From: Planctomycetota bacterium
Lineage (GTDB): Bacteria; Planctomycetota; B15-G4; JADJEK01
Assembly (NCBI GenBank): GCA_052034255.1
Contig: JBPOIU010000019.1
Location: 7,842 to 71,841 of the forward strand
Direction of reading: 5' to 3'
DNA: 64,000 bases
The notes beneath the pieces were generated by a model. It did no database searches. It worked only from the letters and a program-made list of their open reading frames with translations, and was not told the DNA's origin. Both the position numbers and the translations under genes were made by a program. Position 1 is the stretch's first letter. The number at the start of each line of letters is the position of its first letter. Positions 43,379 to 59,335 of this stretch are shown one piece after another.

Positions 43379-44093
43379 GGCAGCACGCTGGAACCACGTG
43401 CTCGGGAGCCACGGCCGAAGGCGCTGTCTGCGTCGTGGCCTCGAGTGCCTCGGCGCGACGCAACACGCCCCACAAGCTGACGACCGCGAGGATCGCGACC
43501 GCGATGCGCGGCACACGCTGATCGAGGCGCGAGCGCAACGAGCCCGCGCAGATCCCAGCGGCGACGAGCGCGGGCAACGTGCCGGCGAAGAACGCGACCA
43601 TCACGCCGGCCGCCGCCAGCGGCGAGCCGGTACCGGCAGCGACGACGACGAACGCCCACAGGAAGCCGCACGGCAACAGCGCCGAGAGCGCGCCGAACCC
43701 GAATGCACGCGCGTTCAGCGACATCCGCGCGAGCTCTTCACGCAGCGGCGCGACGAGATGTTCGAGCGGAGCCAGCAGCCGTCGCATCGGATCGAAGCGC
43801 AACCCGACTTGCAGCGCACCCTTCGCCAGCACCGTGGCGACGAGCAGTCCGACCGCGAACCACAGAGCGCCGCGCTGGATGCCGATGCTCCACGCACCGG
43901 CATCGACGGCGTTGCCGAGGGCTCCGGCGAGTGCTCCGAGCGAGGCGTAGCTGACGAGGCGACCGAGCTGGTAGAGGGCGATCCGTCCCTTGCGTTTCGA
44001 CGCCGACACCCAGACCAACGGGCCGCACATCGCCGCGCAATGCAGCGAGCCCGCGAAACCAGCACCGAGCGTCGACAACAGCAACGCGTTCAT
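43368..44093 (-). CDS. DsbD_2/TauE-SafE-like integral membrane protein (HCxxMCGP motif) embedded in the cco assembly operon
   Basis: The start is at Met 44093 (ATGA overlap with ccoH). It has SLHCAAMCGP, multiple TM helices and a C-terminal CCHGH. Confidence 0.55.
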   Translation of the reverse strand: MNALLLSTLGAGFAGSLHCAAMCGPLVWVSASKRKGRIALYQLGRLVSYASLGALAGALGNAVDAGAWSIGIQRGALWFAVGLLVATVLAKGALQVGLRFDPMRRLLAPLEHLVAPLREELARMSLNARAFGFGALSALLPCGFLWAFVVVAAGTGSPLAAAGVMVAFFAGTLPALVAAGICAGSLRSRLDQRVPRIAVAILAVVSLWGVLRRAEALEATTQTAPSAVAPEHVVPACCHGH

Positions 44094-44593
44094 CGATCGC
44101 CTCGCGCGGCACCGAGCTCTCGGCGCAAGGTCGCGGTGAAACGCTCGCCGGAGCGCTCCGCGACGAGCCGCACTTCCCACAGTCCCGGCCGCGGCTCATG
44201 CAGCGCGGCGACGTAGTCACCGGTCGTGGTGCGCGTCGCCTCGCCGGTCTCGATGCGGCTCGCGCGAGCGATCGCGCAGGCCTCGAACGAGATCGCCGCG
44301 TCGTCGATCGGTTGGCCGCCGCGGTCCTTCAGCACCACCTTCAGTTGGCCGCTCGCGCCGCCAAGGACCGGTGCGACCAACTCGGCGTCCGCGCTCCAAC
44401 CGAGACGTTCGTTGTCGGCGCGCTGGCGCGCGACGTCGTTCCATTGCGCGGCCTTGCGCTCGTAGTCGCGCTCGACGGAGAACGACGGATCGCCGGTCGC
44501 GTAGGCCAACAGGATCACTTGCATCGTGATGCAGAACACGAGCATCCCGACCACGACACCCACCCAAACGCGACGCGCGACGACGGGCTTCAT
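44090..44593 (-). CDS. ccoH: FixH/CcoH family cbb3 oxidase assembly protein
   Basis: It has an N-terminal TM helix and a soluble domain of about 120 aa, and is positioned between ccoG and ccoI with 4-nt overlaps. Confidence 0.65.
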   Translation of the reverse strand: MKPVVARRVWVGVVVGMLVFCITMQVILLAYATGDPSFSVERDYERKAAQWNDVARQRADNERLGWSADAELVAPVLGGASGQLKVVLKDRGGQPIDDAAISFEACAIARASRIETGEATRTTTGDYVAALHEPRPGLWEVRLVAERSGERFTATLRRELGAARGDR

Positions 44594-45990
44594 GGCTTCT
44601 TCTCCGAACCACCGGCGAACAGCGGGCCGAGCACCGTGTGCACGGCGTCGAACACCACCGCGTCGCCGTGCTTCGCGCTCACGCGCACCAGCGCTCGACC
44701 GTTGTCGAAGCGTTCGCGCGGCACGATCAGCGTGGCATTGACTTCGACGTACCCGCGACCCGCGATGTGTTGGGTGCCGTCGGCGGTGAGCAGCGACACA
44801 CCCGGCTCGGGCTGCAGCACGAGGTCGATCGCCGCATCGGCGCGGTTCTCGATCCGGATCGTCGCCGGAGTCGAGATCGAGCCGTCCGCCAACACCGTGA
44901 ACTGCGCACCGCGCGTGCGCAGGAACTCGACCGCGAGCGTCGAGCGCTTCGCCAGCGCCGTGACCAGACCGCTCAGCACGATCGCGATCAGCAACGGATA
45001 GAGCACGATGCGCGGGCGCAGCGTTCTCTTCGGCTTACCGGCAAGCGTCGCTTGGGTCGCGTAACGGATCAGGCCGCGCGGCCGCTCGATCTTGTCCATC
45101 ACGGCGTCGCACGCGTCGATGCACTGCGCGCAGCCCACGCATTCCATTTGCAGACCGGCGCGGATGTCGATGCCGGTCGGACAAGTCTGCACACACAGCT
45201 TGCAGTCGATGCAGTCGCCATGCGTTCGCGTCGCGCCGGTCTCGAGCTTGCCTCGCGGTTCACCACGCGCGACGTCGTAACCGATGACCAGCGAGTGCTC
45301 GTCGAGCAGCACCGATTGGAGCCGACCGTACGGGCACATCAGCGTGCACATTTGTTCGCGCACGTACGCGAAGTCGATGAACATCGCCAACGTGGTGATC
45401 GCGACCACCGCGAACGCCGCCGGATGTTCCGCCGGCGACGTCGTGATCCAGCGCGACAGGCGCTCGGTACCGACGAAGTACGCCAGGAACACGTTCGCGA
45501 TCACGAACGACAGCGCGAGGTAGACGACGAAGCGCAGCACGCGGCGCCATGCCGGCGCGCCTTCGCGCCCATGCTTGCCCTCGATCAGCCGCTGCAGCGG
45601 TCGATAGATCAACTCGAGGTACACGGTCTGCGGGCACGCGTAGCCGCACCACACCCGACCGAGCAGCGCCGTGAACCAGAAGATCCCGAGGAAGATGCCG
45701 ACGACCAGCAGCGCGAGCAGCAGCGTCTCGGTCGCGAAGAACGTCGTCCCGAAGAACGTGAATTCACGGTTCATCAGGTCGAGGAACAGCGCCGGCTTGC
45801 CCCCGATCCGCACGAACGGCAGCGCCGCGAACAATGCGATCAACGCCCAACCGATCACGCGACGGCGGTTCAGGAACCGACCGGGTGACAGCTTCGGGTC
45901 GATCCAGCGCCGCGAACCGTCCTGGTTCAGCGTGGACAACACCCGTTCGGGCGTCGGCAGCATGTGCGGGGGTTGTGGCGCCATGTTCAT
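44590..45990 (-). CDS. ccoG: cbb3 oxidase accessory 4Fe-4S ferredoxin CcoG/FixG
   Basis: Two ferredoxin Cys clusters are present (CGYACPQ, and the CxxCxxCxxxCP pair CKLCVQTCP/CVGCAQCIDAC), with N-terminal TM helices and a C-terminal Ig-like domain. Confidence 0.9.
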   Translation of the reverse strand: MNMAPQPPHMLPTPERVLSTLNQDGSRRWIDPKLSPGRFLNRRRVIGWALIALFAALPFVRIGGKPALFLDLMNREFTFFGTTFFATETLLLALLVVGIFLGIFWFTALLGRVWCGYACPQTVYLELIYRPLQRLIEGKHGREGAPAWRRVLRFVVYLALSFVIANVFLAYFVGTERLSRWITTSPAEHPAAFAVVAITTLAMFIDFAYVREQMCTLMCPYGRLQSVLLDEHSLVIGYDVARGEPRGKLETGATRTHGDCIDCKLCVQTCPTGIDIRAGLQMECVGCAQCIDACDAVMDKIERPRGLIRYATQATLAGKPKRTLRPRIVLYPLLIAIVLSGLVTALAKRSTLAVEFLRTRGAQFTVLADGSISTPATIRIENRADAAIDLVLQPEPGVSLLTADGTQHIAGRGYVEVNATLIVPRERFDNGRALVRVSAKHGDAVVFDAVHTVLGPLFAGGSEKKP

Positions 45991-46009
45991 CGGTCGTCGA
46001 CCTTGGCGG

Positions 46010-46594
46010 TCAGGGATTGGCGGCGAACGGCGCGATCGCGTCGCCCTGCGGTTCCTTGCCGGGCTTCGGCGATTGCGCGAGCTTCGTCACGTACGACGCC
46101 AGCAGCACGATCTGCGTGTCCGTCAGTTGGTCCTTCCAGGTCGGCATGCCCTTCAGCACGACGCCGTCTTGAATGACCTTCGCGATGTCGGTGACGGCCT
46201 TGACGTTGATCCAGCGATCGTCGGTCAAGTTCGGCCCGACCATGCCCGTGCCGTCCGCGCGATGGCATTGCGCGCACTTGGACCGGAATAGGCTCGCCAT
46301 CCCGGCCATTGCCACCGCGTCGTCGCGGTACTTCAGAATCGTCGGCGCGTCCGGCGCGAGCTTGCCGTAGGTCGCGAGCAGCTGGTTCGCGTGATCGGCG
46401 ACCTCGGCTTCGTACGCCTGGTCGAGCGAAGGTCCTTCACCGAAGTGGTAGTAGACCGTGTACGGGAACGCGAACAGGATGGTCAGCCAGAACGTCCACA
46501 CCCACCAACCGGGCAGCGGGTTGTCGTACTCCTGGATGCCGTCGTAGTTGTGGTCGAGGACCGACGACGGATCGGAACCATGAACTTCGCTCAT
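46010..46594 (-). CDS. ccoP: cbb3-type cytochrome c oxidase subunit III CcoP, short monohaem form
   Basis: The FixP N-terminal domain motif (NYDGIQEYDNPLPGWW) is present with a single CAQCH haem site. Confidence 0.8.
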   Translation of the reverse strand: MSEVHGSDPSSVLDHNYDGIQEYDNPLPGWWVWTFWLTILFAFPYTVYYHFGEGPSLDQAYEAEVADHANQLLATYGKLAPDAPTILKYRDDAVAMAGMASLFRSKCAQCHRADGTGMVGPNLTDDRWINVKAVTDIAKVIQDGVVLKGMPTWKDQLTDTQIVLLASYVTKLAQSPKPGKEPQGDAIAPFAANP

Positions 46595-46800
46595 GACGTC
46601 TCTCCAGGCTGCCGCGACGGGGAGCGCGGCTCGAACACTCGATCGTCGTCCAACGGCATGTTTCCGCGCGTCTCGTAGAGCTCACGCCGCCCGAGCATCA
46701 GCCGCACGAGCACGCCGAGGAACAGCGCGAGGAACACGAACAGCGCGACCTGCTTCAGCGCGAGCACCGACTCGGAGAACTGGATCTCAGCGAGAACCAT
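46591..46800 (-). CDS. ccoQ: Small membrane protein, CcoQ-like cbb3 oxidase subunit
   Basis: The 69-aa product has a single TM helix and is coupled by 4-nt overlap between ccoNO and ccoP. Confidence 0.45.
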   Translation of the reverse strand: MVLAEIQFSESVLALKQVALFVFLALFLGVLVRLMLGRRELYETRGNMPLDDDRVFEPRSPSRQPGETS

Positions 46801-49066
46801 GGTCGGCCTCCGGCTTGGCGTCCGTGCTCTGCGCCTGCGATGCGTCGGCGGGCAGCGGCTTCGCGATGTCCGTGCCGAGGCGCAACAGGTAGGCGACGAG
46901 AGCGATGATCTTCTTGTGCTCGATGCCGCTGTCCTTGAACGTCGCGTCCTCGGCGACGAGCTTGTCGAACACGGCCTTCGCCTGCGCGCGCGCGCTGACT
47001 TCGGCCTTGCCGATCACGTCGGCGTAGGGCACGCCGATCTTCGACATCGCGACGACCTTGCCCTCGATCGCGGCGAAGTCGAGCTCGTCTCGCAGCAGCC
47101 ACGGATACGCCGGCATGATCGTGCCCGGGCTCGTGTCCGAGGGTCGATTCAAGTGACGCACGTGCCACGACACGGACGAGTTCGTTTGGCCGATGCGCGC
47201 GAGGTCGGGACCGATGCGGCGCGAACCCCACAGGAACGGGTGGTCGTAGACCGACTCACCGGCCTTGCTGTATTCGCCGTAGCGTTCGGTTTCGTGGCGC
47301 ATCGGCCGCACCATCTGCGAGTGGCACGACACGCAACCTTCTGCGATGTAGACATCGCGGCCCGCGAGTTCGAGCGGCGTCCACGGCGTCACCGTGGCGA
47401 TCGTCGGCACGTTCGACTTCACGATGAACGTCGGGATGATCTCGAACAACGAGGCGGTGACGACCGAGATCACGACCCAGATCGTGAACTTCAGCGGCAA
47501 GCCTTCGAACGAGCGGTGCCACTTGGCCTGGAACAGCACGTCGAGCGACTTCGCGACGTCCGCGACCGCGGTCAGATCCGATGCGGGCGTCGGCGCCGGT
47601 CGCCACGCGCGATCGAGGGCCGGAGCCTGATGCTCCTGCTCCGTGTACGTCGCCGGGCGACGCGCCCACGTCATCAGCAGGTTCACGAGGCACATCACCG
47701 CGCCGACCACGTACAGCGAACCGCCGAACGCGCGCAGCCAGTACATCGGCATCAGCTTGCGCACGGTCTCGATGAAGTCGGGGTACATCAACGAGCCCGA
47801 CGCGTCGAATGCGCGCCACATCAGACCCTGCGTCAAACCCGCGACGTAGATCGGGATCAGATAGAAGACGATGCCGATCGTGCCGAGCCAGAAGTGGGCG
47901 TTGACCCAACCTGGCTTGGCGACGGTCTGCGTCTGGAACAGCCGCGGCGCGAGCCAGTACAGCATGCCGAACGACATGAACCCGACCCAGCCGAGCGCGC
48001 CGCCGTGCACGTGCGCGATGGTCCAGTCGGTGTAGTGCGACAGCGAGTTCACGCTCTTCACCGACATCATCGGACCCTCGAAGGTCGACATGCCGTAGAA
48101 GGTGATCGCGACCACGTAGAACTTCAGGATCGGGTCCTGCGCGACCTTGTGCCACGCGCCGCGCAGCGTCAGCAGGCCGTTCAGCATGCCGCCCCACGAC
48201 GGCATCCACAGCATCACCGAGAACAGCATGCCGAGCGTGCTGAGCCACGCCGGGCACGACGTGTAGTGCAGGTGGTGCGGGCCGGCGAAGATGTAGATGA
48301 AGACCAGCGACCAGAAGTGCAGGATCGACAGCTTGTAGGAGAACACCGGGCGCTCGGCGGCCTTCGGCAGGAAGTAGTACATGAGGCCGAGGAACGGTGT
48401 GGTCAGGAAGAACGCCACGGCGTTGTGGCCGTACCACCACTGCATGAAGGCGTCCTGGACGCCGCTGTAGATCGAGTAGCTCTTCGTCCAGGTCACGGGG
48501 ATCGCGAGGCTGTTGAAGATGTGCAGCACGGCGATCGCGATCAGCGTCGCGATGTAGAACCACACGGCGACGTAGAGGTGCTGCTCGCGCCGCTTCGCGA
48601 CCGTGCCGAAGTAGTTGATCGCGAACGCCACCCAAACCAGCGCGATCGCGATGTCGATCGGCCACTCGAGTTCGGCGTATTCCTTCGAGGACGTGATGCC
48701 GGCCGGCAGTGTGATCGCGGCGGCCACGATGATCAGTTGCCAGCCCCAGAAGTGCACGCGCCCGAGCATGTCGCTGAACATGCGCGCCTTCAGCAGACGC
48801 TGCGACGAGTAGTACATGGCCGCGAAGATCGCGTTGCCCGCGAACGCGAAGATCACCGCGTTCGTGTGCAGCGGACGAAGGCGGCCGAAGCTCAACCAAG
48901 GAGTGTCGAAGTTGAGCGCGGGTACTGCGAGCTGCAGGGCGATGAAGACGCCGGCGAGCATGCCGACGACTCCCCAGACCGCGGTCGCGAAGACGAACTT
49001 TCGAACGATGTCGTCGTCGTAGCGGAACGACTCCATCCGGCTGGCGGACGCTGTGGACACCGGCAT
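46787..49066 (-). CDS. ccoNO: Fused cbb3-type cytochrome c oxidase subunits I and II (CcoNO)
   Basis: The start is at Met 49066. The N-terminal ~480 aa is a 12-TM haem-copper oxidase with His ligands (HNAVAFF, HHLHYT, HVHGGALGW). The C-terminal ~200 aa is CcoO-like with CVSCHSQ. Confidence 0.9.
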   Translation of the reverse strand: MPVSTASASRMESFRYDDDIVRKFVFATAVWGVVGMLAGVFIALQLAVPALNFDTPWLSFGRLRPLHTNAVIFAFAGNAIFAAMYYSSQRLLKARMFSDMLGRVHFWGWQLIIVAAAITLPAGITSSKEYAELEWPIDIAIALVWVAFAINYFGTVAKRREQHLYVAVWFYIATLIAIAVLHIFNSLAIPVTWTKSYSIYSGVQDAFMQWWYGHNAVAFFLTTPFLGLMYYFLPKAAERPVFSYKLSILHFWSLVFIYIFAGPHHLHYTSCPAWLSTLGMLFSVMLWMPSWGGMLNGLLTLRGAWHKVAQDPILKFYVVAITFYGMSTFEGPMMSVKSVNSLSHYTDWTIAHVHGGALGWVGFMSFGMLYWLAPRLFQTQTVAKPGWVNAHFWLGTIGIVFYLIPIYVAGLTQGLMWRAFDASGSLMYPDFIETVRKLMPMYWLRAFGGSLYVVGAVMCLVNLLMTWARRPATYTEQEHQAPALDRAWRPAPTPASDLTAVADVAKSLDVLFQAKWHRSFEGLPLKFTIWVVISVVTASLFEIIPTFIVKSNVPTIATVTPWTPLELAGRDVYIAEGCVSCHSQMVRPMRHETERYGEYSKAGESVYDHPFLWGSRRIGPDLARIGQTNSSVSWHVRHLNRPSDTSPGTIMPAYPWLLRDELDFAAIEGKVVAMSKIGVPYADVIGKAEVSARAQAKAVFDKLVAEDATFKDSGIEHKKIIALVAYLLRLGTDIAKPLPADASQAQSTDAKPEADHGSR

Positions 49067-49474
49067 GCTCCGATCCCGAAACGGTGGAGGAACGAGAAGA
49101 GAACCGGGTCGAGCAACCTCCATGCCCGGTGCGGAGGATGCCGCAGACGGCCTCCATTGGGCCGTTCGCGGCTCGAAATCGCGGCGCGATGTCGCAGGTT
49201 CCCGCAGCCAGCGCGTGTTCGTTCCCAAAGGCAACGGGAAATCCGCCCCGACTTCAGATCGGTGCGCGAGAGCGAGGTCGACGGAAGTTTTTGAATCAGC
49301 GCGTCGCGCGAGCCGTGCGCGTGCCGGGATCGAAACACGAAGCGCGGGTCGCGGGAGACGAGTCCAGGACGTGTGCGCCGAACATCGCGAGTCTCCGCGC
49401 CGCAGCGTCGTCAGGTCCAAGCGCGCCGAGAAGTTTGCATCCCGCGCTCAGGAGCTCTTCCAGCCCCCCGCCCA

Positions 49475-49658: not shown

Positions 49659-50360
49659 TTACCGCTCCGCATCCCCCATCAATCGGTACCCCACCCCCGG
49701 CTCCGTGCGCAGCACCTTCGGCCGTGCCGGGTCGTGCTCCAACTTGTGCCTCAACTGCGCCATGTAGACGCGTAGGTAATGCGTTTCCCCGGCCGCCGCC
49801 GGGCCCCACACTTCCTTCAGCAGCTGCCGATGCGTCGCGACCTTGCCGGGAATGCGCGCGAGTGCGGCGAGCAGCTTGAACTCGGTCGGCGTCAACTGCA
49901 CGTCCGCTTCCGCTCGCGTCACCCTGTGATGTTCGAGATCGATCACGACGTCGCCGCACCGCACGATCGGCGCGACCGCGGCCGGCGCAGCCGCGTGCCG
50001 CAGCGCGACCCGAATGCGCGCGAGCAACTCGCCGGTCGCGAACGGCTTGGTGACGTAATCATCGGCGCCGGCATCGAGCAGCACGACCTTCTCGTCTTCA
50101 CGCCCGCGCGCGGACAGCACGACGATTGGCGCGCGGCTCCACTCCCGTAACCCGCGGACGACGTCGATGCCATCTCCGTCGGGCAACCCCAAGTCCAACA
50201 GCACGACGTCCGGATTCCACGACCGCGCGAGCGCGAGTGCATCGCGGACGCCGCCGGCCTCGACGATCCGTAGTCCCTCCGCGACCAGCGTCGTGCGTAA
50301 CAGCTGCCGAAGCGGCGCGTCGTCCTCCACGATCAACGCCAGCGCGCCGGGCGGGCTCAC
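49659..50360 (-). CDS. kdpE: Two-component response regulator KdpE (OmpR family)
   Basis: The GTG start at 50360 overlaps the kdpD stop in GTGA. It has a receiver domain (LIVEDDAPL...DVVLLDLGLPDGDG) and a winged-helix domain (LTPTEFKLL...GVGYRL). Confidence 0.85.
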   Translation of the reverse strand: MSPPGALALIVEDDAPLRQLLRTTLVAEGLRIVEAGGVRDALALARSWNPDVVLLDLGLPDGDGIDVVRGLREWSRAPIVVLSARGREDEKVVLLDAGADDYVTKPFATGELLARIRVALRHAAAPAAVAPIVRCGDVVIDLEHHRVTRAEADVQLTPTEFKLLAALARIPGKVATHRQLLKEVWGPAAAGETHYLRVYMAQLRHKLEHDPARPKVLRTEPGVGYRLMGDAER

Positions 50361-53071
50361 GGAGCACGCTCCGCCGCACCTTCGGCGATCACCTGCGGCG
50401 GCGTCGCCGGCAGCGGCAACGTGAAGGCGAGAATGGCCCCGCCGCCGTCGCGCGCACGCGCTTCGATGGCGCCGCCATGCGCGTGCACGATGCCCCGGCA
50501 GATCGTGAGCCCGAGCCCGCTCCCGCTTCGCGACGCGTCGCCACGCACGAACTTGTCGAACACGCGCGGCGCCACGTCCGCGGCGATCCCCGGCCCGCGA
50601 TCCCGCACCTCGACGACGAGCTCCGCGTCCCTCCGCCATGCCGAGACCTCGATCGGATCGCGCGACGCGCCGTGCCGCGAAGCGTTTTCCAACAGGTTCG
50701 TCAGCACTTGCTCGATCAGCAACACGTCCATCGACACGAGCGGCAGGGCCTCCGCGACATCGACCTCCACCAGGACTCCCGGAGCGAAGCGCTCGAACCG
50801 CGTCAGCGCGCAGCCGATCACTTCCTCGATCGACGACCACTCGCGATGCAGCTCGAGCGTCCCCGACTCGAGCCGCGTCATGTGCAGCAGGTTGCCGACC
50901 AACCGATTCAGTCGCTCCGCCTCCTCGTGGATCAACCGCAAGAGCTCCGCGCGCGCATCCTCGCGCAACGCGTTGCCGTCGATCAGCGACGTCGCGGCGC
51001 CCGTGATCGCGGCGAGCGGAGTCCGCAGGTCGTGGGACACCGAACTCAGCAACGCATTGCGCACTTCTTCACGATCGGCACGGCGCAGCGCATTCGCGGC
51101 ATCCTCTGCGAGCACGGCCCGCCCGAACGCCGTCGCGATCGGATGGATGAAGGCGTCGAGCTCCTTCTCGAGCGCGAGGTCGCGCATCCGCGAGGGATCG
51201 GCCGGCAACAGCGCCACCACGCCGAGCGCGCGCCCCGCCGTCGCCAACGGATGGAACGACGCCCGCGCGCCGGGCAGCGTGTCCGCCCCGATTCCCGCGC
51301 GCTGCTCCAGATCGAGTACCCAGGCCGCGACGCTCGCATCGCGCTCGTCGAGGTCGAACGCATGAGGGTGCCGCAGCGCGACGAGCTTGCGCTCCGCGTC
51401 GGCGAGCAACAGGCACACGCGGACGTCGAACGCCGACGCGAGATGACGCGCGGCGACGTCCGCGATCGCGTCGCGATCCGGAGCTTCGGCGAGCGCGCGC
51501 GTCAAGGAATACAGGGCAGCCGTGCGCCGCTCGCGAACGCGCGCGTCCTCGGCCTGCGCCCGGACCGAGTCGGCGAGCCCACTGACGACGAGCGCTGCGC
51601 CGAACATCACGCAAAACGTCACCACGTACTTCGCGTCGTCGACCGCGAACGTGAAGTACGGCGGCACGAAACAGAAGTCGAACGCCGCGACCGACGCGAC
51701 GGACGCGAGCAATGCGGGATTGCGGCCGTAGCGCATCGCCACGCCGACGATCGCCACCAGGAACAGCATCGCGAGATCGGACGGCTCGAGCACGGAGCGC
51801 AATCCGAAATCGACCGCCGTGACTACGCCCACGGCTCCGAGCGCGGCGATCCACGACCCCGCCGGCGTCGCCGCGCGCCGGGAATGCGGCCGGGCGCGCG
51901 AGCGGCGCTGCTGCTCCTCGGAATCGCCGGCGATCGCGAGGACGTCGATGGCTCCGCTGCCGCGCACGATCCGATCGAGCAACGATCCGAACACGACGTC
52001 GCGCCACCGCGCATGCGCCGGCTTGCCCATCACCAAACGCGTGACGTTCTCCGCGCGCGCGTGGTCGAGCACGACGGCGGCGACGTCGTCGCCGGTGAGC
52101 CGCACGACTTCCGCTCCGAGCCGTTCGGCGAGCCGCAGCGGTTCGGCGACGCGCGCGCGGTCGCGCTCGGAGAGCGGCGCGCCCAACACTTCGACATGCA
52201 CGACCGTGAAGCGCGCCTTGAGTCCTGCGGCGAGGCGAGCTCCGCCGCGCACGAGGTCCTTCGCGAACGCTCCGCCTCCGATCGCGACGAGCACGTGCTC
52301 CGCCGCTGGCCACGCGCGTTCGATGCCTTGGTCGCGGCGCCATTCGAGGACGTCGGCATCGACGTGCTCGGCCGTCCGCCGCAACGCGAGTTCGCGCAAC
52401 GCCAACAGGTTGCCGCGCTTGAAGAAGTTCGTCTCCGCGCGCGCCGCCTGCTCGCGCGGATACACGCGTCCCTCGCGCAGGCGCGTCAGCAGCGCGTCGG
52501 GTGGCAGATCCACGAGCTCGACCTCATCGGCACGTTGCAGCACGTGGTCGGGAACGGTCTCGCGCACGCGCACGCCCGTGATCTGCGTGACGACGTCGTT
52601 CAAGCTCTCCACGTGCTGGACGTTCAGCGTGGTCCAGACGTCGATGCCGGCCTCGAGCAGCTCGAGCACGTCCTGCCAGCGCTTGAGATGGCGCGCATCC
52701 GGTGCGTTGGTGTGCGCGAGTTCGTCGACCAACACGACGTCCGGAGCGCGCGCGAGCGCTCGATCGAGATCGAACTCGTCGAGCACGTGGTCGCGATGCG
52801 CGACGCGGCGGCGTGCGAGCAACTCGATGCCTTCGAGTTGGGCGCCGGTCTCCGCGCGTCCGTGCGTCTCGATCACGCCGGCGACGACGTCGCGTCCCTC
52901 GGCGCGCGCGCGCCGGGCCGCCGCCAGCATCGCGTAGGTCTTGCCGACCCCCGGAGCAGCACCGAGGAAGATCTTCAGCCGCCCGCGATGGGAACGCTCC
53001 ACCTCGGCGCGCGCGTCTTCGAGGACCGCATCGCGCGGCTCTTCGCCCGGGGCCGAAGTCGGTTCGGTCAT
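50357..53071 (-). CDS. kdpD: Sensor histidine kinase KdpD
   Basis: The KdpD N-terminal domain has a Walker A (GAAPGVGKTYAM), followed by a USP-like domain, TM helices, a GAF domain, an H-box (SHDLRTPL) and an HATPase domain (GSGLGLTICRGIV). Confidence 0.9.
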   Translation of the reverse strand: MTEPTSAPGEEPRDAVLEDARAEVERSHRGRLKIFLGAAPGVGKTYAMLAAARRARAEGRDVVAGVIETHGRAETGAQLEGIELLARRRVAHRDHVLDEFDLDRALARAPDVVLVDELAHTNAPDARHLKRWQDVLELLEAGIDVWTTLNVQHVESLNDVVTQITGVRVRETVPDHVLQRADEVELVDLPPDALLTRLREGRVYPREQAARAETNFFKRGNLLALRELALRRTAEHVDADVLEWRRDQGIERAWPAAEHVLVAIGGGAFAKDLVRGGARLAAGLKARFTVVHVEVLGAPLSERDRARVAEPLRLAERLGAEVVRLTGDDVAAVVLDHARAENVTRLVMGKPAHARWRDVVFGSLLDRIVRGSGAIDVLAIAGDSEEQQRRSRARPHSRRAATPAGSWIAALGAVGVVTAVDFGLRSVLEPSDLAMLFLVAIVGVAMRYGRNPALLASVASVAAFDFCFVPPYFTFAVDDAKYVVTFCVMFGAALVVSGLADSVRAQAEDARVRERRTAALYSLTRALAEAPDRDAIADVAARHLASAFDVRVCLLLADAERKLVALRHPHAFDLDERDASVAAWVLDLEQRAGIGADTLPGARASFHPLATAGRALGVVALLPADPSRMRDLALEKELDAFIHPIATAFGRAVLAEDAANALRRADREEVRNALLSSVSHDLRTPLAAITGAATSLIDGNALREDARAELLRLIHEEAERLNRLVGNLLHMTRLESGTLELHREWSSIEEVIGCALTRFERFAPGVLVEVDVAEALPLVSMDVLLIEQVLTNLLENASRHGASRDPIEVSAWRRDAELVVEVRDRGPGIAADVAPRVFDKFVRGDASRSGSGLGLTICRGIVHAHGGAIEARARDGGGAILAFTLPLPATPPQVIAEGAAERAP

Positions 53072-54609
53072 CGCGTGTTTCCGTCACCCACCGGCGCGGG
53101 GCCGCTTTCGATGCGATCGTGCAGTGCGGGCGGGACCAGTGTACGCCAGGTGCTCGTGTCCCTCGCGTCACGCAGTCGCGGCGTCACCAGGACGATCACG
53201 CGGCTCGTGCGCTGCGTCGTCACCTCGCGCCGGAACAACCCGCCGAGCAGCGGGATGCTGCGTAGCAGGAAGACGCCGGTCTCTTCGCGCAGCGTCCGGC
53301 AGCGCTCGTACGTCCCGAGCAGGACGGTTCTGTCGGACGCCAAGTTCACGACCGACCGCGTCTGCGAGGTCGCCACGACCGGCGTCCGCGCGTCCCCGGC
53401 GAGATCGACGACGCTGGTGACGATCACGTCGACGTCGGCCGTGATCGACTGCGTCGCGATGAACGGGCGGATCATGAGTTCGATCCCTTCGATCACCCGT
53501 TCCGCAGCATTCTGCTCCACGACGCGGCGGTCCGTGAGATCGCCCGTGGGCGTTTCGATCGGCGACGCCGGCACGGTGCGCACGGCTCGGAACACGGCGG
53601 GCGTCGCGGTGGCCGCGGCTTTGGCTCCGTTCGACAGCGCGCCCGGGTTGTCCTCCGCGTTGATCGAGAGGATCCGCGATTGCGTGACCACCTCCGCCTT
53701 GCCCTCTCGCGCGAGGTACGACAAGAAATCCGCCAGGACGGCCGCGTCGAGCCGTACCACCGAGTCGATGGTCGTCCCTTGCCCGTCCCCGGCGACGTCG
53801 AACAGCGTGAACGAGCCCGAGATCCCGCGCTTCCACGCCTCCCAGTCCACGCCCAGATCCGAGCCGACTTCGTCGTCGACTTCGTAGATCGCCAGTTCGA
53901 ACTCGGCTTGCAGCGGCGGCCGATCGAACGACTCGAGCGCGGCGAGGTCGTCGGCGATGTCGGACGGATTCTCCGACATGTAGATCGTGTTCAGCGCCGG
54001 ATCGGCGAACGGCGCGACGTAGAACTGGCCGACGTTCCCGAGCTCGGTGCCGATCAGGATGGCCTTCAGCTCTCCGGCGGTCCGGTGTTTGCCGACGTAG
54101 CGCGTCGCGGCCAGCTGGCCCGCCGCATTCGCGTTCCCGGTGCCATCGTGGAACTGGAAACCAGGGATGTCGATTTGCGCGATCGTCGCGTCGATGCCCG
54201 GAATCATGAAGTTCGGCGCCGTCACGAACACGAACTGAACGGGCGATCCCGCTCCGTCTTTCAAGTCCTGGCGCCCCATCACTTCGACGATGCCGCCTTC
54301 GTATGCGAGCGCGCGCAGCAAGTACGACTGCACGTCGATCGCATTGGCGTGCCGCAGCGCGTACGTCCGCAGCACGTAATCGTTCTTCGCCAGACCGGGC
54401 GTCGTACCGGCGTTCGAGCCGTTCGGATTCGGATTGCGCGCGCGCAGGTCCTCGGCGCGTCGCAGCAGGATGTCCTCGCTCGTGCCCGGTGCCGTCGGGA
54501 CGTGGACGCGCACTTCGGGATCGATGGTCGCGGGCTCCTGGCGTGCCTCCGCCGCGACCGACATACCGAGAACCAGCCCCGCGATCAGGACCCCACCCAC
54601 CGTCTTCAT
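53068..54609 (-). CDS. Secretin-domain outer-membrane protein (type II/III secretion / pilus secretin family) embedded in the kdp operon between kdpC and kdpD
   Basis: A signal peptide ([22 protein letters not shown]) is followed by the C-terminal secretin signature TVLLGTYE...GVFLLRSIPLLGGLFRREVTTQRTSRVIVLVTPRL. There are ATGA overlaps with kdpC upstream and kdpD downstream. Confidence 0.7.
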   Translation of the reverse strand: MKTVGGVLIAGLVLGMSVAAEARQEPATIDPEVRVHVPTAPGTSEDILLRRAEDLRARNPNPNGSNAGTTPGLAKNDYVLRTYALRHANAIDVQSYLLRALAYEGGIVEVMGRQDLKDGAGSPVQFVFVTAPNFMIPGIDATIAQIDIPGFQFHDGTGNANAAGQLAATRYVGKHRTAGELKAILIGTELGNVGQFYVAPFADPALNTIYMSENPSDIADDLAALESFDRPPLQAEFELAIYEVDDEVGSDLGVDWEAWKRGISGSFTLFDVAGDGQGTTIDSVVRLDAAVLADFLSYLAREGKAEVVTQSRILSINAEDNPGALSNGAKAAATATPAVFRAVRTVPASPIETPTGDLTDRRVVEQNAAERVIEGIELMIRPFIATQSITADVDVIVTSVVDLAGDARTPVVATSQTRSVVNLASDRTVLLGTYERCRTLREETGVFLLRSIPLLGGLFRREVTTQRTSRVIVLVTPRLRDARDTSTWRTLVPPALHDRIESGPAPVGDGNTR

Positions 54610-55157
54610 TGCATGCTCTCCAACGCGAGATTGAGCTTCAGCACGTTCACACGCGGCTCACCGAGCCATCCGAACGTGCGCGGCTCGATGTGTTCGACGA
54701 CCAGCGCCGCGAGCTTCGACGCGTCGATCCCGCGCGCGCGCGCCACGCGCTCGACCTGCGCCAACGCTCCGGCCGGGGTCACGTGCGGGTCGAGGCCACT
54801 GCCCGACGCCGTCACGAGGTCCACGGGCGCGGGCGTCCGCAGTTCGAGGCGCCCCGCACGAGCGAGCACTTGCTCGAGCAACGCCGGATTGCGCGGTCCG
54901 AGGTTCGATCCCGACGAGGAGGCCGCGTTCCACGGCGGACTCGTCGCCGACGGTCGCGGCCAGAACCACTGCGGCTGCGTGAACGATTGCGCGATCCACT
55001 CCGACCCCACGACGACGCCGTCGTGCGCGAGCGGACTTCCCGCGGCGCGCGTCGGGAACAGCAGGCGCGCGATCGCCGTGACCGTGAGCGGATAAGCGAT
55101 TCCGAACAGCGCCGTCGACACCAACAGCACGGCGAACGCACGACGGATCGTGTTCAT
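54606..55157 (-). CDS. kdpC: Potassium-transporting ATPase subunit C
   Basis: The 183-aa product has an N-terminal TM helix, a KdpC-family motif ([17 protein letters not shown]) and 4-nt overlaps with its neighbours. Confidence 0.85.
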
Positions 55158-57247
55158 GGCGCGCTCCCTCCATCGAAGCCCAACGCGGCGAGCAGTAGAT
55201 CGATCAGCTTGATGCCGAGGAACGGCGCGATCAGCCCACCCACGCCGTACACGAGCAGGTGGTGCGACAACGTCGCAGCGGCGGGACGCGCCTTGTACGC
55301 GACTCCGCGCAGAGCCAGCGGAATCAGCGCGATCAGGATCAGCGCGTTGAACACGACGGCCGACAGGATCGCGCTGTGCGGCGATCCGAGCTGCATCACG
55401 TCGAGCACGCCCAGTTGCGGGTATGTGGTCGCGAATGCCGCGGGCAGGATCGCGAAGTACTTCGCGACGTCGTTCGCGATCGAGAACGTCGTCAGCGCTC
55501 CACGCGTCATCAGCAGTTGTTTGCCGATCTCGACCACGTCGAGCAGCTTGGTCGGATCCGAATCGAGATCGACCATGTTGCCGGCTTCCTTGGCGGCCTG
55601 CGTACCGGTGTTCATCGCGACGGCCACGTCCGCCCGCGCCAGCGCGGGCGCGTCGTTCGTGCCGTCCCCGGTCATCGCGACCAGATTGCCGGCATCCTGG
55701 TACCTGCGGATCAGATCGAGCTTCGCCTCCGGAGTCGCCTGCGCCAGGAAATCGTCGACGCCGGCTTCGGCCGCGATCGCGGCGGCGGTCAGCGGATTAT
55801 CCCCCGTGACCATGACGGTCTTGATGCCGATGCCGCGCATCGCGGCGAAGCGTTCGCGGATGCCGCCTTTGACGACGTCCTTCAGATGCACGACGCCGAG
55901 CGCGCGCGCGCCTTCGGCGACGACGAGCGGAGTCCCACCCGAGCGCGCGATGCGCGTCACCGTGTCGCGAATCGGCGCACCGAACGAACCGCCGTTCGCG
56001 GCGACCAGAGCTTCGATCGCGTCGGCGGCACCCTTGCGGATCGAGCGGCCATCGACGTCGACTCCGCTGACGCGTGTCGTCGCGGAGAACGGGATGAAGC
56101 GCGCTCCGAGCGCGGCGACGTCACGCTGCCGCAGCCCGAATCGCTCCTTCGCGAGCACGACGATGCTGCGACCCTCCGGGGTTTCGTCGGCGAGCGACGC
56201 CAACTGCGCCGCGTCCGCCAGTCGCGCGGCATCCACGCCCGGTCCCGGCAGCAGGTCGACGGCCTGCCGATTGCCGAACGTGATCGTTCCGGTCTTGTCG
56301 AGCAGCAGCACATCGATGTCGCCGGCGGCCTCGACCGCCTTGCCCGACGTCGCGATGACGTTCACGCGCAGCAAGCGATCCATGCCGGCGATGCCGATCG
56401 CCGACAACAGCCCGCCGATGGTCGTCGGGATCAGACAGACGAGCAGCGCGACCAGCGTCGCCAGCGGCACCGCGGATCCCGCACCCGCGACGTCCGCCGC
56501 GTAGCGCGAGAACGGTTCCAGCGTCGCGGTCGCGAGCAGGAACACGAGCGTCAGTCCGGCGAGCAGCACGTCCAGCGCGATCTCGTTCGGCGTCTTGCGC
56601 CGCGTCGAACCCTCGACGAGCGCGATCATGCGGTCGAGGAACGTCCCGCCGGCGACCGCGGTGATGCGGACGACGATCCAATCCGACAGCACGCGCGTTC
56701 CGCCGGTCACGGAGCTGCGATCCCCGCCGCTCTCGCGGATGACGGGAGCGCTCTCGCCCGTGATCGCGCTCTCGTCGACCGAGGCGACGCCTTCGACGAC
56801 TTCGCCATCCGATGGGATCACGTCTCCGGCGCGCACCAACACGTGCTCGCCGATGCGCAGTTGCGCGGCGGAGATTTCGGCGACCTCGGCGTCGGGTCTC
56901 GGCTGCGTCAGTCGGCGCGCGACGAGTTCGCGCCGCGTCGCGCGCAACGACGCCGCCTGCGCCTTGCCGCGGCCTTCGGCGAACGCCTCGGCGAGCGCCG
57001 CGAACCATACGGTCACCCACAGACACGCCGCGATGGTGCCTTCGAACCAAGCGGCGGTCGCGCCCTTCTGCCACGTCGCTTCGATCCACAACCACGTCGT
57101 GAACGCGCTGCCGACCCACACCACGAACATCACCGGATTGCGTGCGACGCGGCGCGGATCCAGCTTGCGTAGGGAATCCGCGAGGACGGGACGCAACCCG
57201 GATCCCCACATGGACGGGCGCTTGCGATCAACGGCCGCATGCGACAT
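55154..57247 (-). CDS. kdpB: Potassium-transporting P-type ATPase subunit B
   Basis: The start is at Met 57247. The P-type ATPase motifs are [17 protein letters not shown] and [10 protein letters not shown]. Confidence 0.9.
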
Positions 57248-57334
57248 GGCGTACTCCTCGGCGATTGCGTTCGAGCTCCGCGCACGCGTCGCTCGTCGAC
57301 ACACGTCGACGCACGACGGCGGGGAGCGATCCGG

Positions 57335-59059
57335 TCAACGGGTGAACAACTGGAAGTGCTCGGCGATCGGGCCGAGCATCAATGCCGGCACGAACGTCAG
57401 CGCTCCGACGAGCACTACGATCGCGATCAAGAACGACGTGAACAGCGGGCCGTGCGTCGGCAGCGTGCCCGGACCCGGAGCGCTCGGCTTCTTCGCCGCC
57501 AGGGCGCCGGCGAGCGCCAGCACCGGGATCAAGACGCCGAAGCGACCGATCCACATGCAGATGCCGAGCGCGAGATCGAAGAACGGCGTGTTCGCGGCGA
57601 GTCCGCCGAACGCGCTGCCGTTGTTGCCGGAGGCCGACGAGAACGCGTAGAGGATCTCGCTGAAGCCATGCGCTCCAGGATTGGCGACGCCCTGCCTGCC
57701 GGCGTCCAACGACGTCGCGCACGCGGTCCCGACCAGAATCGCCGCGGACGGCAACAGGATGCCGAGGATCGCCACTTTGGTTTCGAACGCCTCGATCTTC
57801 TTGCCCAGGTACTCGGGCGTTCGCCCCACCATCAGGCCGGCGACGAACACGGCGAGGATCACGAACAACAACATCCCGTAGATGCCGGAGCCGACGCCGC
57901 CGAACACGATTTCACCGAGCTGGATCAGCATCAGCGGGATCGCTCCCGCGAGCGGCAACAGCGAGTCGTGCATGCCGTTCACCGAGCCGTTGCTCGCAGC
58001 CGTGGTCGCCACCGCCCACGCAGCCGTGTCGATCGTGCCGAAGCGCGTCTCCTTCCCTTCAGGGTTCCCCCCGGGTTGGCGGTCCGTGGCGCGCGCGTCG
58101 ATCCGCGTGGTGTCGAAACGCGGGTTGGCGCGATTCTCGGCGATGACCGTCGCGAACAGCGCGAGCAAGAACGGGATCGCCATGGCCGCGAACAGCGTCC
58201 GGCCTTGCCGGGGATCGCGCACCATGCGGCCGAACGTGAAACACAGCGCCGCCGGCAGCAGCAGGATCGACAGCCACTCGAGCAAGTTCGACAGCGGAGT
58301 CGGGTTCTCGAGCGGATGGGCGGAGTTCGCGTTGAAGAAGCCGCCGCCGTTGGTGCCGAGTTGCTTGATCGCGACTTGGGACGCCACCGGGCCGACCGGG
58401 ATGAACGCGCCCGCGGAGTCCCCTTCGAGCGGGGCCGCGACGAAGCCCGACTCCAGCGTCTGCGGCACGCCCTGCGCGACCAACGCGACGCCGAGCACGA
58501 GCGAGAGCGGCAGCAAGACCTGCACGCTCGCTCGAATGACGTCGGCGTAGAAGTTGCCGATCGACTTCGCTCCGCGCCGCTCGAGCGCGCGGAACAACGC
58601 GATCGCGACCGCGATGCCGACCGCGGCGGACAGGAAGTTCTGCGTTCCGAGCCCGACCGCCTGCACGAAGTTGGTCAAGGAGCTCTCGCCGCCGTAGGCC
58701 TGCCAGTTCGTGTTGGTGATGAAGCTCAATGCCGTGTTGAACGCGAGCTCGGGCGCGACGGCGGCGAAGCCGCGGTCGTTCCACGGCAGCACGTGTTGCA
58801 GCCGCAGCAGTCCGTAGAGCACCAGCGCCCCGACCGCGTGGAACGCCAGCGCGTCGAGCGCGTAGCGGCGCCAGCCGCTTTCTTGCAGCGGGTGGATCCG
58901 CAACAGCCGCAGGAGCGCGCGTTCGAGTGGGCCGAAGATGCGCGACGTCCACGTCGGTTCGTCGCCGAAGATGCGCGCGATCCAATGTCCGACGGGCGCC
59001 GCGAGCGCGAACAACGCGAGCACGGGAACGAGGAGGCGAATGACGTCCATGCCGCTCAT
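57335..59059 (-). CDS. kdpA: Potassium-transporting ATPase subunit A
   Basis: The 574-aa polytopic product has KdpA selectivity-filter-like motifs (NTNWQAYGGE, TNGGGFFNANSAHP, SGNNGSAFGG). Confidence 0.9.
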   Translation of the reverse strand: MSGMDVIRLLVPVLALFALAAPVGHWIARIFGDEPTWTSRIFGPLERALLRLLRIHPLQESGWRRYALDALAFHAVGALVLYGLLRLQHVLPWNDRGFAAVAPELAFNTALSFITNTNWQAYGGESSLTNFVQAVGLGTQNFLSAAVGIAVAIALFRALERRGAKSIGNFYADVIRASVQVLLPLSLVLGVALVAQGVPQTLESGFVAAPLEGDSAGAFIPVGPVASQVAIKQLGTNGGGFFNANSAHPLENPTPLSNLLEWLSILLLPAALCFTFGRMVRDPRQGRTLFAAMAIPFLLALFATVIAENRANPRFDTTRIDARATDRQPGGNPEGKETRFGTIDTAAWAVATTAASNGSVNGMHDSLLPLAGAIPLMLIQLGEIVFGGVGSGIYGMLLFVILAVFVAGLMVGRTPEYLGKKIEAFETKVAILGILLPSAAILVGTACATSLDAGRQGVANPGAHGFSEILYAFSSASGNNGSAFGGLAANTPFFDLALGICMWIGRFGVLIPVLALAGALAAKKPSAPGPGTLPTHGPLFTSFLIAIVVLVGALTFVPALMLGPIAEHFQLFTR

Positions 59060-59148
59060 GCGAAACGCTCCGGGTCGACGATCGCGACGACGAGGTATGC
59101 GGTCAGTGCCACGACGAGCACCAGGGCGATCACGGCGTCGACGTTCAT
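59056..59148 (-). CDS. kdpF: Potassium-transporting ATPase subunit F (30 aa)
   Basis: The hand translation MNVDAVIALVLVVALTAYLVVAIVDPERFA follows the pattern of E. coli KdpF (..LLGYLVYALINAEAF). The stop overlaps the kdpA start in ATGA and GGAG lies upstream. Confidence 0.7.
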   Translation of the reverse strand: MNVDAVIALVLVVALTAYLVVAIVDPERFA

Positions 59149-59234
59149 GGCTGACTCCGCTTCGCGGGTCGCGCGACGAGCAGTGCGAGCGCCCCGAACA
59201 GTCCGATCAGCAATGCGAGACAGAGCAGGTCCAT
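59145..59234 (-). CDS. Additional 29-aa hydrophobic micro-ORF directly upstream of kdpF, overlapping its start in ATGA; second KdpF-like or leader peptide
   Basis: The hand translation is MDLLCLALLIGLFGALALLVARPAKRSQP. An RBS (GGAGGA) lies 6 nt before the ATG. Confidence 0.4.
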   Translation of the reverse strand: MDLLCLALLIGLFGALALLVARPAKRSQP

Positions 59235-59335
59235 CGAATCCTCCGCGTGCGACGCGGGAGGAGTTCTAGGCCGATCGACCTCAAGGCGGCATCAAGACTG
59301 GATGGCGACCGGCGGCGGCGCAGCGCGCGTTCGCG

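What the first reader, a model, noticed from the sequence alone, without database searches (positions are those of the whole stretch)
53068..54609. Secretin-family outer-membrane gene embedded in the kdp operon between kdpC and kdpD
A 513-aa protein with a Sec signal peptide and a clear C-terminal secretin signature (GVFLLRSIPLLGGLFRREVTTQRTSRVIVLVTPRL) sits between kdpC and kdpD. Its start overlaps the kdpC stop and its stop overlaps the kdpD start, both in ATGA. No pilus, T2SS or T3SS partner genes are present anywhere in the window. Secretins normally act as gated outer-membrane channels for secretion machines. Strict translational coupling inside kdpFABC-X-DE instead suggests an outer-membrane component of high-affinity K+ uptake, for example an outer-membrane conduit or a turgor-linked function. 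I do not know of such a component being described for Kdp.
Basis: partly seen in the sequence, partly recalled or inferred. Interest (0 to 1): 0.7.

Follow-up and report, generated by a model that had tools for sequence, protein, structure and literature searches.

The report
Orphan secretin conserved inside kdp operon
A pore-forming outer-membrane protein of the secretin family, normally part of protein-secretion or pilus machines, sits without any such machine inside the high-affinity potassium-uptake (kdp) operon of a planctomycete. It stays next to kdp in distant relatives despite gene reshuffling, so it probably serves potassium uptake, most likely as an outer-membrane channel.

Summary
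A 513-aa ORF on the minus strand (53068-54609) has a signal peptide and a Pfam Secretin domain (57 bits; cutoff 27.5). It lies between kdpC and kdpD with ATGA overlaps at both ends. No T2SS, T4P or T3SS gene scored in 39 window ORFs.

It is a short secretin: two small N-domains plus a canonical barrel with the gate hinge motifs. It lacks an N0 domain and an S-domain. It scores far below every NCBIfam secretin subfamily cutoff.

About 23 orthologues were found. The identifiable ones come from Phycisphaeraceae/Planctomycetota and Sumerlaeota MAGs. The clade containing the window protein is next to kdp in 6 of 7 distinct loci, in four gene orders:
- kdpC-Sec-kdpD
- kdpC-Sec-x-kdpD
- kdpB-x-Sec-kdpC
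- Sec divergent from kdpFABCDE

In the divergent loci, Sec carries the same direct-repeat box plus -10 element as the kdpF promoter.

Sister-clade paralogues lie elsewhere (one is amt-glnK-Sec) and have no adjacent secretion machine.

The functional link to Kdp is well supported. Its role as a K+-starvation-induced outer-membrane conduit is inferred, not shown. I found no description of it in the literature. Verdict: new variant of a known kind, interest about 0.65.

The parts
59281..59296 (-). Direct-repeat box CTTGATGCCGCCTTGA (CTTGA-N6-CTTGA, 11-bp period), followed 12 nt later by the -10-like TAGAAC. Putative KdpE site and promoter of the operon.
   Evidence: It is the only match in the 64-kb window (expected 0.09). 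The same architecture precedes kdpF in L001, L003, L010 and L011, and also precedes the divergent secretin gene in L010 and L011. Binding by KdpE is inferred, not shown.
59145..59234 (-). 29-aa hydrophobic leader ORF (MDLLCLALLIGLFGALALLVARPAKRSQP), ATGA-coupled to kdpF.
   Evidence: Read from the sequence. A comparable 32-aa ORF precedes kdpF in L003. Whether it is translated is unknown.
59056..59148 (-). kdpF (30 aa), ATGA-coupled to kdpA.
   Evidence: Read from the sequence. The equivalent ORF in L003 hits Pfam Potass_KdpF.
57335..59059 (-). kdpA
   Evidence: Pfam KdpA, E=3.1e-227.
55154..57304 (-). kdpB (P-type ATPase subunit). The true start may lie a little downstream of the listed GTG.
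   Evidence: Pfam E1-E2_ATPase plus Hydrolase. tblastn matches to orthologues begin around residues 18-37.
54606..55157 (-). kdpC
   Evidence: Pfam KdpC, E=4e-66.
53068..54609 (-). Short orphan secretin, 513 aa. Layout: signal peptide 1-22; conserved but unstructured N-tail 44-76, including the clade-specific RNPNPNGSNAG insert; N-domain 77-147; N3-like domain 169-229; secretin double-barrel core 230-480; variable tail 481-513.
53170..53922 (-). Secretin core (residues 230-480). It contains the LGVDW motif, the gate-hinge G375/P382 (EGIELMIRPFI), the GATE2 LLG (G432) and IPLLGGLF.
   Evidence: The family profile aligns with ExeD/GspD residues 199-483. Conserved columns are listed. The model has pLDDT 84-95 over most barrel strands.
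50357..53071 (-). kdpD sensor kinase
   Evidence: Pfam KdpD, Usp, DUF4118, GAF_3, HisKA and HATPase_c.
49659..50360 (-). kdpE response regulator. The GTG start overlaps the kdpD stop (GTGA).
   Evidence: NCBIfam KdpE NF007820, E=1.2e-81, 273 bits, below its 325-bit cutoff. Junction read.

Best explanation
The gene encodes a machine-independent short secretin that multimerises in the outer membrane. It is expressed together with KdpFABC from the K+-starvation (KdpD/KdpE) promoter. Its most likely job is to raise outer-membrane permeability to K+ when external K+ is scarce, so that diffusion into the periplasm does not limit the micromolar-affinity Kdp pump. This would be a functional analogue of starvation-induced channels such as PhoE or OprP, built from a secretin scaffold. 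Shown: secretin identity and fold; embedding and overlap coupling in the kdp operon; conservation of the kdp linkage through rearrangements; a shared promoter box. Inferred: co-transcription; KdpE control; outer-membrane location; multimeric pore; ion passage through the retained gate or a partly open state; and any contact of the conserved N-tail with the Kdp complex.
For: Identity:
- Pfam Secretin is above threshold.
- All 40 Foldseek PDB hits with E<=1e-3 are secretins.
- The gate-hinge Gly/Pro, GATE2 LLG and IPxLGxLF motifs are conserved.

Independence from a machine:
- No STN/N0 hit at E<=0.01 and only two small N-domains.
- No S-domain.
- No partner genes in the 64-kb window.
- No adjacent partner genes at about 16 distinct loci of the ~23-member family.

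Link to Kdp:
- 4-nt overlaps on both sides. The same kdpC/Sec ATGA plus SD is present in L001 and L026.
- In an NJ tree the kdp-linked copies form one clade.
- 6 of 7 distinct loci of that clade are next to kdp, in four arrangements. Their Kdp proteins are only 44-66% identical, which indicates deep divergence.
- The same MAGs carry a second paralogue away from kdp: L010+L015 and L011+L018.
- In L010 and L011 the monocistronic, divergent Sec gene has its own CTTGA-N6-NTTGA-N12-TAnnnT element, identical in layout to the kdpF promoter. That composite motif occurs 6 times in 324 kb on both strands, 5 of them at these promoters.

Solute-channel theme in relatives: amt-glnK-Sec, corC-corC-x-Sec, corA inside the L003 kdp cluster, and a GH31/MFS sugar locus next to a sister-family member.
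Against: - There is no functional datum of any kind.
- The gate motifs are retained, so the resting channel may be closed. Whether a closed secretin gate passes enough K+ is not established here.
- Secretins characterised so far all serve macromolecule export or uptake machines (my knowledge).
- One clade member (L025) is not by kdp and lies 7-10 kb from PilM_2/T2SSK-like genes.
- One sister-family member is followed by a T2SSE ATPase.
- Neighbours of the sister clade are mostly unrelated to transport: HSP90, PrsW, glycosyltransferases.
- All genomes are MAGs or contigs, so secretion machines elsewhere in the genome cannot be excluded, and the porin inventory is unknown.
- The KdpE assignment of the box rests on position and conservation only.
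Confidence: 0.45

Rival explanations
1. It is a conventional secretin. It is the outer-membrane pore of a T2SS, T4P or Tad-like machine encoded elsewhere in the genome. Its position in kdp reflects regulatory piggy-backing (secretion or piliation switched on by K+ or osmotic stress), not ion transport.
For: The gate elements are canonical. A sister-family member is followed by MshEN/T2SSE. L025 has PilM_2/T2SSK-like genes within 10 kb. Planctomycete secretion genes are often scattered (my knowledge).
Against: There is no N0/STN domain, which in studied secretins contacts the inner-membrane platform. There is no S-domain. No partner genes occur in 64 kb of the window or adjacent to the gene in the other loci. 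Genomes carry several such short paralogues, plus longer conventional secretins such as the 799-aa one in L027. All NCBIfam subfamily scores are 4-6 fold below cutoff.
Confidence: 0.15
2. It is a trans-envelope partner. The secretin docks through its conserved, unstructured N-tail (residues 44-76, with the clade-specific RNPNPNGSNAG insert) and its N-domains onto the periplasmic face of KdpFABC (for example KdpC). This would form a continuous K+ path from the medium to KdpA.
For: The N-tail is strongly conserved yet has low pLDDT, as expected of a binding motif. The 11-residue insert is present in all 14 members of the kdp-linked clade and absent in the sister clade. The gene is always next to or near kdpC in the co-directional arrangements.
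Against: The stoichiometries do not match: a 12-15-mer ring against a 1:1:1:1 pump. The divergent, monocistronic arrangement in L010 and L011 shows that tight co-translation is not required. No interaction evidence exists. P0013 keeps the insert but is not by kdp.
Confidence: 0.12
3. It has an envelope or turgor role. The ring acts in envelope adaptation during K+ limitation or osmotic upshift, for example as a periplasmic solute release valve or an outer membrane-to-wall brace. It would not be an uptake channel.
For: Kdp systems respond to turgor and osmotic cues in model bacteria (established knowledge). Sister-clade neighbours include stress-type genes, HSP90 and PrsW.
Against: No peptidoglycan-binding domain (AMIN, LysM, OmpA) was detected. 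The hypothesis makes no specific prediction that explains the amt-glnK and corC/corA contexts.
Confidence: 0.13
4. The adjacency is incidental: a lineage-specific insertion kept by descent, with no functional connection to K+ uptake.
For: The family is rare and confined to a few uncultured lineages. One clade member has left kdp.
Against: Adjacency survives at least three rearrangements between genomes whose Kdp proteins are only 44-66% identical. The divergent copies carry the kdp-type promoter box. The overlap coupling is conserved.
Confidence: 0.05

Closest known systems
T2SS secretins GspD/PulD/ExeD/XcpQ
   Different: It has no N0 and only one further N-domain. It has no S-domain or pilotin site. 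TIGR02517 scores 55 bits against a 351-bit cutoff. There are no gsp genes nearby. It lies in an ion-pump operon.
Filamentous-phage pIV (f1), the minimal secretin
   Different: pIV has an N0 domain and works with phage pI/pXI to extrude virions. No phage genes are present here.
Type IV pilus/competence secretins PilQ/HofQ
   Different: TIGR02515 scores 48 bits against a 284-bit cutoff. There are no AMIN or N0 domains and no pilMNOP genes.
Starvation-induced outer-membrane channels (PhoE of E. coli, OprP/OprO of Pseudomonas)
   Same: This is the proposed logic, not homology. A dedicated outer-membrane channel is co-regulated by the two-component system that switches on the high-affinity inner-membrane transporter for the same scarce ion.
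   Different: Those are trimeric 16-strand beta-barrel porins. This is a secretin-fold multimer. Ion selectivity here is untested.
Canonical kdpFABC-kdpDE operons (E. coli and others)
   Same: The gene set, the order F-A-B-C-D-E, the overlap coupling and an upstream direct-repeat site with 11-bp periodicity (suited to an OmpR-family regulator) are all present.
   Different: An extra outer-membrane gene lies between kdpC and kdpD. There is an extra 29-aa leader ORF. The box sequence (CTTGA repeats) is unlike the T-rich E. coli KdpE site (my knowledge).

Membership tests
Secretin superfamily (Pfam PF00263) | C-terminal secretin domain scoring above the curated threshold | tested here: met
   57.3 bits against 27.5, E=1.9e-15, residues 334-479.
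Secretin superfamily (Pfam PF00263) | Secretin barrel fold | tested here: met
Secretin superfamily (Pfam PF00263) | Periplasmic gate elements (GATE1 hinge Gly in VGxxLxVxP, GATE2 Gly, IPxLGxLF) | tested here: met
   G375 and P382 align with the GspD hinge motif. G375 is >=90% conserved and P382 invariant across 70 sequences. G432 is >=90% conserved in the 23-member family. The IPxLGxLF motif keeps P453 and F459 invariant within the family and >=90% conserved across 70 sequences.
Secretin superfamily (Pfam PF00263) | Ring-building N-domain (Secretin_N/N3) before the barrel | tested here: inconclusive
   Pfam Secretin_N scores 19.4 bits, below the 28.2 cutoff. However, the model shows two beta-alpha-beta-beta-alpha domains, and the profile aligns with the ExeD N3 domain.
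Secretin superfamily (Pfam PF00263) | Homo-oligomeric (12-15-mer) outer-membrane ring | not testable with these tools
   Only monomer prediction is available.
T2SS secretin GspD | Equivalog HMM TIGR02517 above cutoff | tested here: not met
   55.1 bits against 351.
T2SS secretin GspD | N0-N1-N2-N3 periplasmic domains and a C-terminal S-domain | tested here: not met
   No STN/N0 hit at E<=0.01. The model has two N-domains only. About 30 variable residues follow the barrel.
T2SS secretin GspD | Encoded with gspC-M genes | tested here: not met
   None in the 64-kb window, nor adjacent to the gene in any locus of the ~23-member family. The rest of the genome is not available.
T4P secretin PilQ | TIGR02515 above cutoff; AMIN/N0 domains; pilMNOP neighbours | tested here: not met
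   48.5 bits against 284. No AMIN hit. No pil genes in the window.
T3SS secretin SctC | TIGR02516 above cutoff; injectisome genes | tested here: not met
   59.4 bits against 238. No sct genes in the window.
kdp operon (accessory member) | Same strand, no intergenic gap, translational coupling with kdp genes | tested here: met
   ATGA overlaps at both ends plus an SD.
kdp operon (accessory member) | Linkage conserved across divergent genomes | tested here: met
   6 of 7 distinct clade loci are kdp-linked, in four arrangements.
kdp operon (accessory member) | Controlled by KdpD/KdpE and induced by K+ limitation | tested here: inconclusive
   A shared CTTGA-N6-NTTGA-N12-TAnnnT element precedes kdpF and the divergent Sec genes. 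No binding or expression data exist.
Classical porins (PhoE/OprP type) | Trimeric 16/18-strand beta-barrel porin fold or family HMM | tested here: not met
   No porin Pfam hit, and the fold is secretin. The resemblance is in proposed role only.

The most novel reading that the evidence does not exclude
Phycisphaerae and Sumerlaeota have turned the secretin scaffold into a family of stand-alone, substrate-dedicated outer-membrane solute channels, in effect 'secretin porins'. Paralogues are wired to different uptake systems: the kdp-linked clade for K+, an amt-glnK-linked copy for NH4+, and others beside corC/corA or sugar-utilisation genes. The kdp copy is switched on by KdpE. This would be the first secretin whose physiological substrate is an inorganic ion, and the first dedicated outer-membrane component of Kdp-type K+ uptake.
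Probability: 0.3. Interest if true: 0.85.

Novelty: new variant of a known kind. Interest (0 to 1): 0.65.

Why it matters
Secretins are regarded as gated exits or entrances for folded proteins, pili, phage and DNA, always attached to an inner-membrane machine. A secretin that is conserved in, and apparently co-regulated with, a K+ pump operon would extend the family to small-solute uptake. It would also add an outer-membrane step to the Kdp pathway, which is usually described as purely inner-membrane. It bears on how planctomycete-type and Sumerlaeota envelopes, whose porin repertoire is poorly known, admit nutrients. Finally, it gives a compact (~500 aa), pilotin-independent secretin for structural and electrophysiological work.

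Tried and rejected
- **Metagenome scan.** The metagenome-contig scan with the family profile gave only 3 further loci, none kdp-linked and one a duplicate. The synteny survey therefore rests on about 19 distinct loci.
- **Plasmid collection.** tblastn found only SctC-like or unnamed secretins at about 24% identity.
- **Literature.** Seven full-text searches were run. Six combined secretin, kdp, porin, Planctomycetes and outer-membrane terms, and one searched 'orphan secretin'. None returned a relevant description. One apparent hit was the word 'secreting'.
- **Promoter and terminator scan.** The sigma-70 and terminator scan of 49.3-59.5 kb found no promoter-like sites, and terminator-like sites at the shuffled expectation (5 against 5.0). 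It gives no support for, and no evidence against, an internal transcription unit.
- **RNA elements.** Rfam and tRNA scans of the window were empty, so there is no riboswitch upstream of kdp.
- **First structure model.** The model from 23 sequences was poor (pLDDT 59.8). It was replaced by a 70-sequence model (pLDDT 77.9).
- **Recent horizontal insertion.** Rejected: the codon-position GC matches the neighbours, and the linkage is conserved in distant relatives.
- **Lipoprotein or self-piloting secretin.** Rejected: no Cys lipobox in the signal peptide.


Full report
**1. Observation**

The ORF exists as described, on the minus strand: 53068..54609, ATG start, 513 aa. The quoted C-terminal peptide is residues 445-479.

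Pfam gives Secretin PF00263 at 57.3 bits (cutoff 27.5, E=1.9e-15) over residues 334-479. Secretin_N is sub-threshold.

The minus-strand neighbours are:
- kdpA (57335-59059)
- kdpB (55154-57304)
- kdpC (54606-55157)
- kdpD (50357-53071)
- kdpE (49659-50360)

All have strong Pfam or NCBIfam matches. A 30-aa kdpF and an extra 29-aa hydrophobic ORF precede kdpA, each ATGA-coupled to the next gene.

The kdpC/Sec and Sec/kdpD junctions are both ATGA, and GGAGAG lies 7 nt before the Sec start. kdpB/kdpC and kdpD/kdpE overlap in the same way. Codon-position GC of the ORF (0.68/0.48/0.87) matches its neighbours.

Pfam scans of 39 window ORFs found no secretion-system or pilus family. Downstream of kdpE lies a cbb3 oxidase cluster (fused ccoNO, ccoP, ccoG, ccoH, ccoI). 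Upstream lies a large Ser/Thr kinase.

**2. Anatomy of the protein**

A first AlphaFold model from 23 sequences was poor (pLDDT 59.8). A second from 70 sequences reached pLDDT 77.9 and pTM 0.67. It shows:
- a signal-peptide helix (4-19)
- an unstructured stretch to residue 76
- two beta-alpha-beta-beta-alpha N-domains (78-146 and 168-228)
- a run of long strands (234-480) typical of the secretin double barrel

A family profile aligns with ExeD residues 199-483, that is N3 plus the barrel. Family G375/P382 sit on the GspD hinge motif VGxxLxVTPxI. LGVDW, the GATE2 LLG and IPLLGGLF are conserved.

There is no STN/N0 hit at E<=0.01 and no S-domain; only about 30 variable residues follow the barrel. 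All NCBIfam secretin subfamily models score 4-6 fold below their cutoffs.

The protein is therefore a bona fide secretin. It is a short one, and it lacks the parts that in studied systems contact the inner-membrane platform (N0) and the pilotin (S-domain). That last statement rests on established knowledge of T2SS and T3SS secretins.

Two family-specific features stand out:
- A conserved but low-confidence N-tail (residues 44-76).
- A conserved loop at 317-337 with invariant N317, E319, D320, G323, G328 and P337, placed just before the first gate strand.

**3. Relatives and their genomic settings**

The 5.8-billion-protein search found only 23 orthologues at 38-100% identity in the alignment. 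An exhaustive profile search found fewer than ten 50%-identity clusters at that level. It also found a larger sister family of ~500-aa secretins.

In the GTDB species-representative scan, the 12 loci found came from Phycisphaeraceae/Planctomycetota, Sumerlaeota/Sumerlaeia and one unclassified bacterial MAG. The metagenome scan added three loci.

An NJ tree splits the family into two clades:
- A clade holding the window protein: P0002-P0014, 46-77% identity in the alignment.
- A sister clade: P0015-P0023, 38-43% identity.

Every member of the first clade carries an 11-residue insert (RNPNPNGSNAG in the window) in the N-tail. The sister clade lacks it.

Gene contexts in the first clade:

| Locus | Arrangement |
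|---|---|
| window, L001 | kdpFABC-Sec-kdpDE |
| L026 | kdpABC-Sec-(122-aa ORF)-kdpDE |
| L003/L004 | kdpFAB-(115-aa ORF)-Sec-kdpC-corA-kdpD/E |
| L010, L011 | Sec alone, divergent from kdpFABCDE, with a convergent gene on its other side |
| L025 | not next to kdp |

That makes six of seven distinct loci kdp-linked, in four gene orders. Their Kdp proteins are only 44-66% identical to the window's. This is deep divergence with repeated rearrangement, not a single inherited block.

Two MAGs carry both a kdp-linked copy and a sister-clade copy elsewhere (L010+L015, L011+L018), so the two clades are paralogues.

Sister-clade neighbours are varied:
- amt-glnK-Sec
- corC-corC-x-Sec
- HSP90-Sec, twice
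- an ABC ATPase, twice; PrsW downstream, twice; glycosyltransferases
- a longer 799-aa secretin nearby

None has an adjacent secretion or pilus gene set.

Three members of the more distant sister family were sampled:
- a row of three short secretins
- a GH31/MFS/AraC sugar locus
- one case followed by a T2SSE ATPase

**4. Regulation**

Upstream of the window's leader ORF lies CTTGATGCCGCCTTGA, two CTTGA half-sites 11 bp apart. A -10-like TAGAAC follows 12 nt later. It is the only such site in the window, against 0.09 expected.

The same layout precedes kdpF in L001, L003, L010 and L011.

In L010 and L011 the ~215-bp region between kdpF and the divergent Sec gene holds the element in both orientations. 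One copy points to kdpF. The other (CTTGAGACGACATTGA-N12-TAGGTT in L010; GCTGACGGCGACTTGA-N12-TAGCTT in L011) points to Sec, about 40 nt before its start.

A strict composite pattern occurs six times in 324 kb searched on both strands. Five of those are at these promoters.

An 11-bp direct repeat overlapping the -35 position is the usual format for OmpR/PhoB-family activators such as KdpE (established knowledge). I infer KdpE control of both kdpFABC and Sec. This has not been shown.

No sigma-70 consensus, significant terminator or Rfam element was found inside the operon.

**5. Most likely mechanism**

The evidence shows a stand-alone secretin whose expression is tied to the K+-starvation regulon.

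The simplest role that explains the coupling is a K+-limitation-induced outer-membrane channel. It would keep periplasmic K+ from becoming limiting for a micromolar-affinity pump. This is the same logic as PhoE or OprP for phosphate.

The reading fits the lack of machine-contact domains. It fits the paralogue next to amt-glnK, since NH4+ resembles K+ in size. It also fits the corA/corC contexts.

How ions pass is open. They could pass through the small aperture of a closed gate, or through a gate altered by the family-specific acidic loop 317-337 and the variable GATE1 tip 347-370.

I put this reading at about 0.45. The rivals are:
- a docked trans-envelope complex via the N-tail (0.12)
- a conventional secretin for a machine encoded elsewhere, merely K+-regulated (0.15)
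- an envelope or turgor role (0.13)
- incidental adjacency (0.05)

**6. Comparison with what is known, and novelty**

By fold and motifs it belongs to the secretin superfamily. It fails the tested defining features of GspD, PilQ and SctC: HMM cutoffs, N0/AMIN/S domains and partner genes.

In size and simplicity it is nearest to phage pIV. In proposed role it is nearest to starvation-inducible porins, to which it is not homologous.

Six full-text searches combining secretin, kdp, porin, Planctomycetes and outer-membrane terms found no description of a secretin in a kdp operon, nor of a dedicated outer-membrane component of Kdp.

I rate it a new variant of a known kind. The link to Kdp is solid. 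The function is a testable hypothesis in lineages so far known only from MAGs.

Noticed in passing
window 59145-59234 (-): An extra 29-aa hydrophobic ORF is ATGA-coupled to kdpF, which is itself ATGA-coupled to kdpA. L003 has a comparable 32-aa ORF before kdpF (L003 5332-5430). It could be a second KdpF-like peptide or a leader.
   Followed up: partly
window 46787-49420 (-) and 40931-46594 (-): Directly downstream of kdpE is a cbb3 oxidase cluster. ccoN and ccoO are fused in one 877-aa ORF (COX1 plus FixO). It is followed by ccoP, ccoG, ccoH and a ccoI-type P-type ATPase.
   Followed up: partly
L007 8019-11569: An ammonium transporter and P-II (glnK) are followed 150 bp later, on the same strand, by a sister-clade secretin (44% identical). 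This is a second case of this secretin family sitting beside a cation-uptake system.
   Followed up: partly
L028 3514-8626: Three short secretin paralogues (536, 454 and 541 aa) lie side by side with no secretion-system genes around them.
   Followed up: no
L003 12374-16001: A corA gene sits between kdpC and kdpD. KdpD also appears split: the N-terminal KdpD domain matches at 13357-14112, and a separate DUF4118-HisKA-HATPase gene lies at 14178-16001.
   Followed up: no
L026 5036-5404; L003 9628-9975: Small unannotated membrane-anchored ORFs (122 and 115 aa, unrelated to each other by eye) lie next to the secretin inside two kdp clusters. The window has no counterpart.
   Followed up: no
window 22860-26084 (+), 34491-35759 (-), 59336-62995 (-): There are three Ser/Thr protein kinases, two of them very large with TPR and AAA_16 modules. 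One lies immediately upstream of the kdp promoter. A CHAT-TPR protein is at 2843-5836 (-).
   Followed up: no
L029 776-8536: In the same Sumerlaeia MAG as L020, a sister-family short secretin sits just downstream of a GH31 glycosidase. An AraC-type regulator and an MFS sugar transporter lie beyond it. The arrangement resembles a sugar-utilisation locus with its own outer-membrane channel.
   Followed up: no
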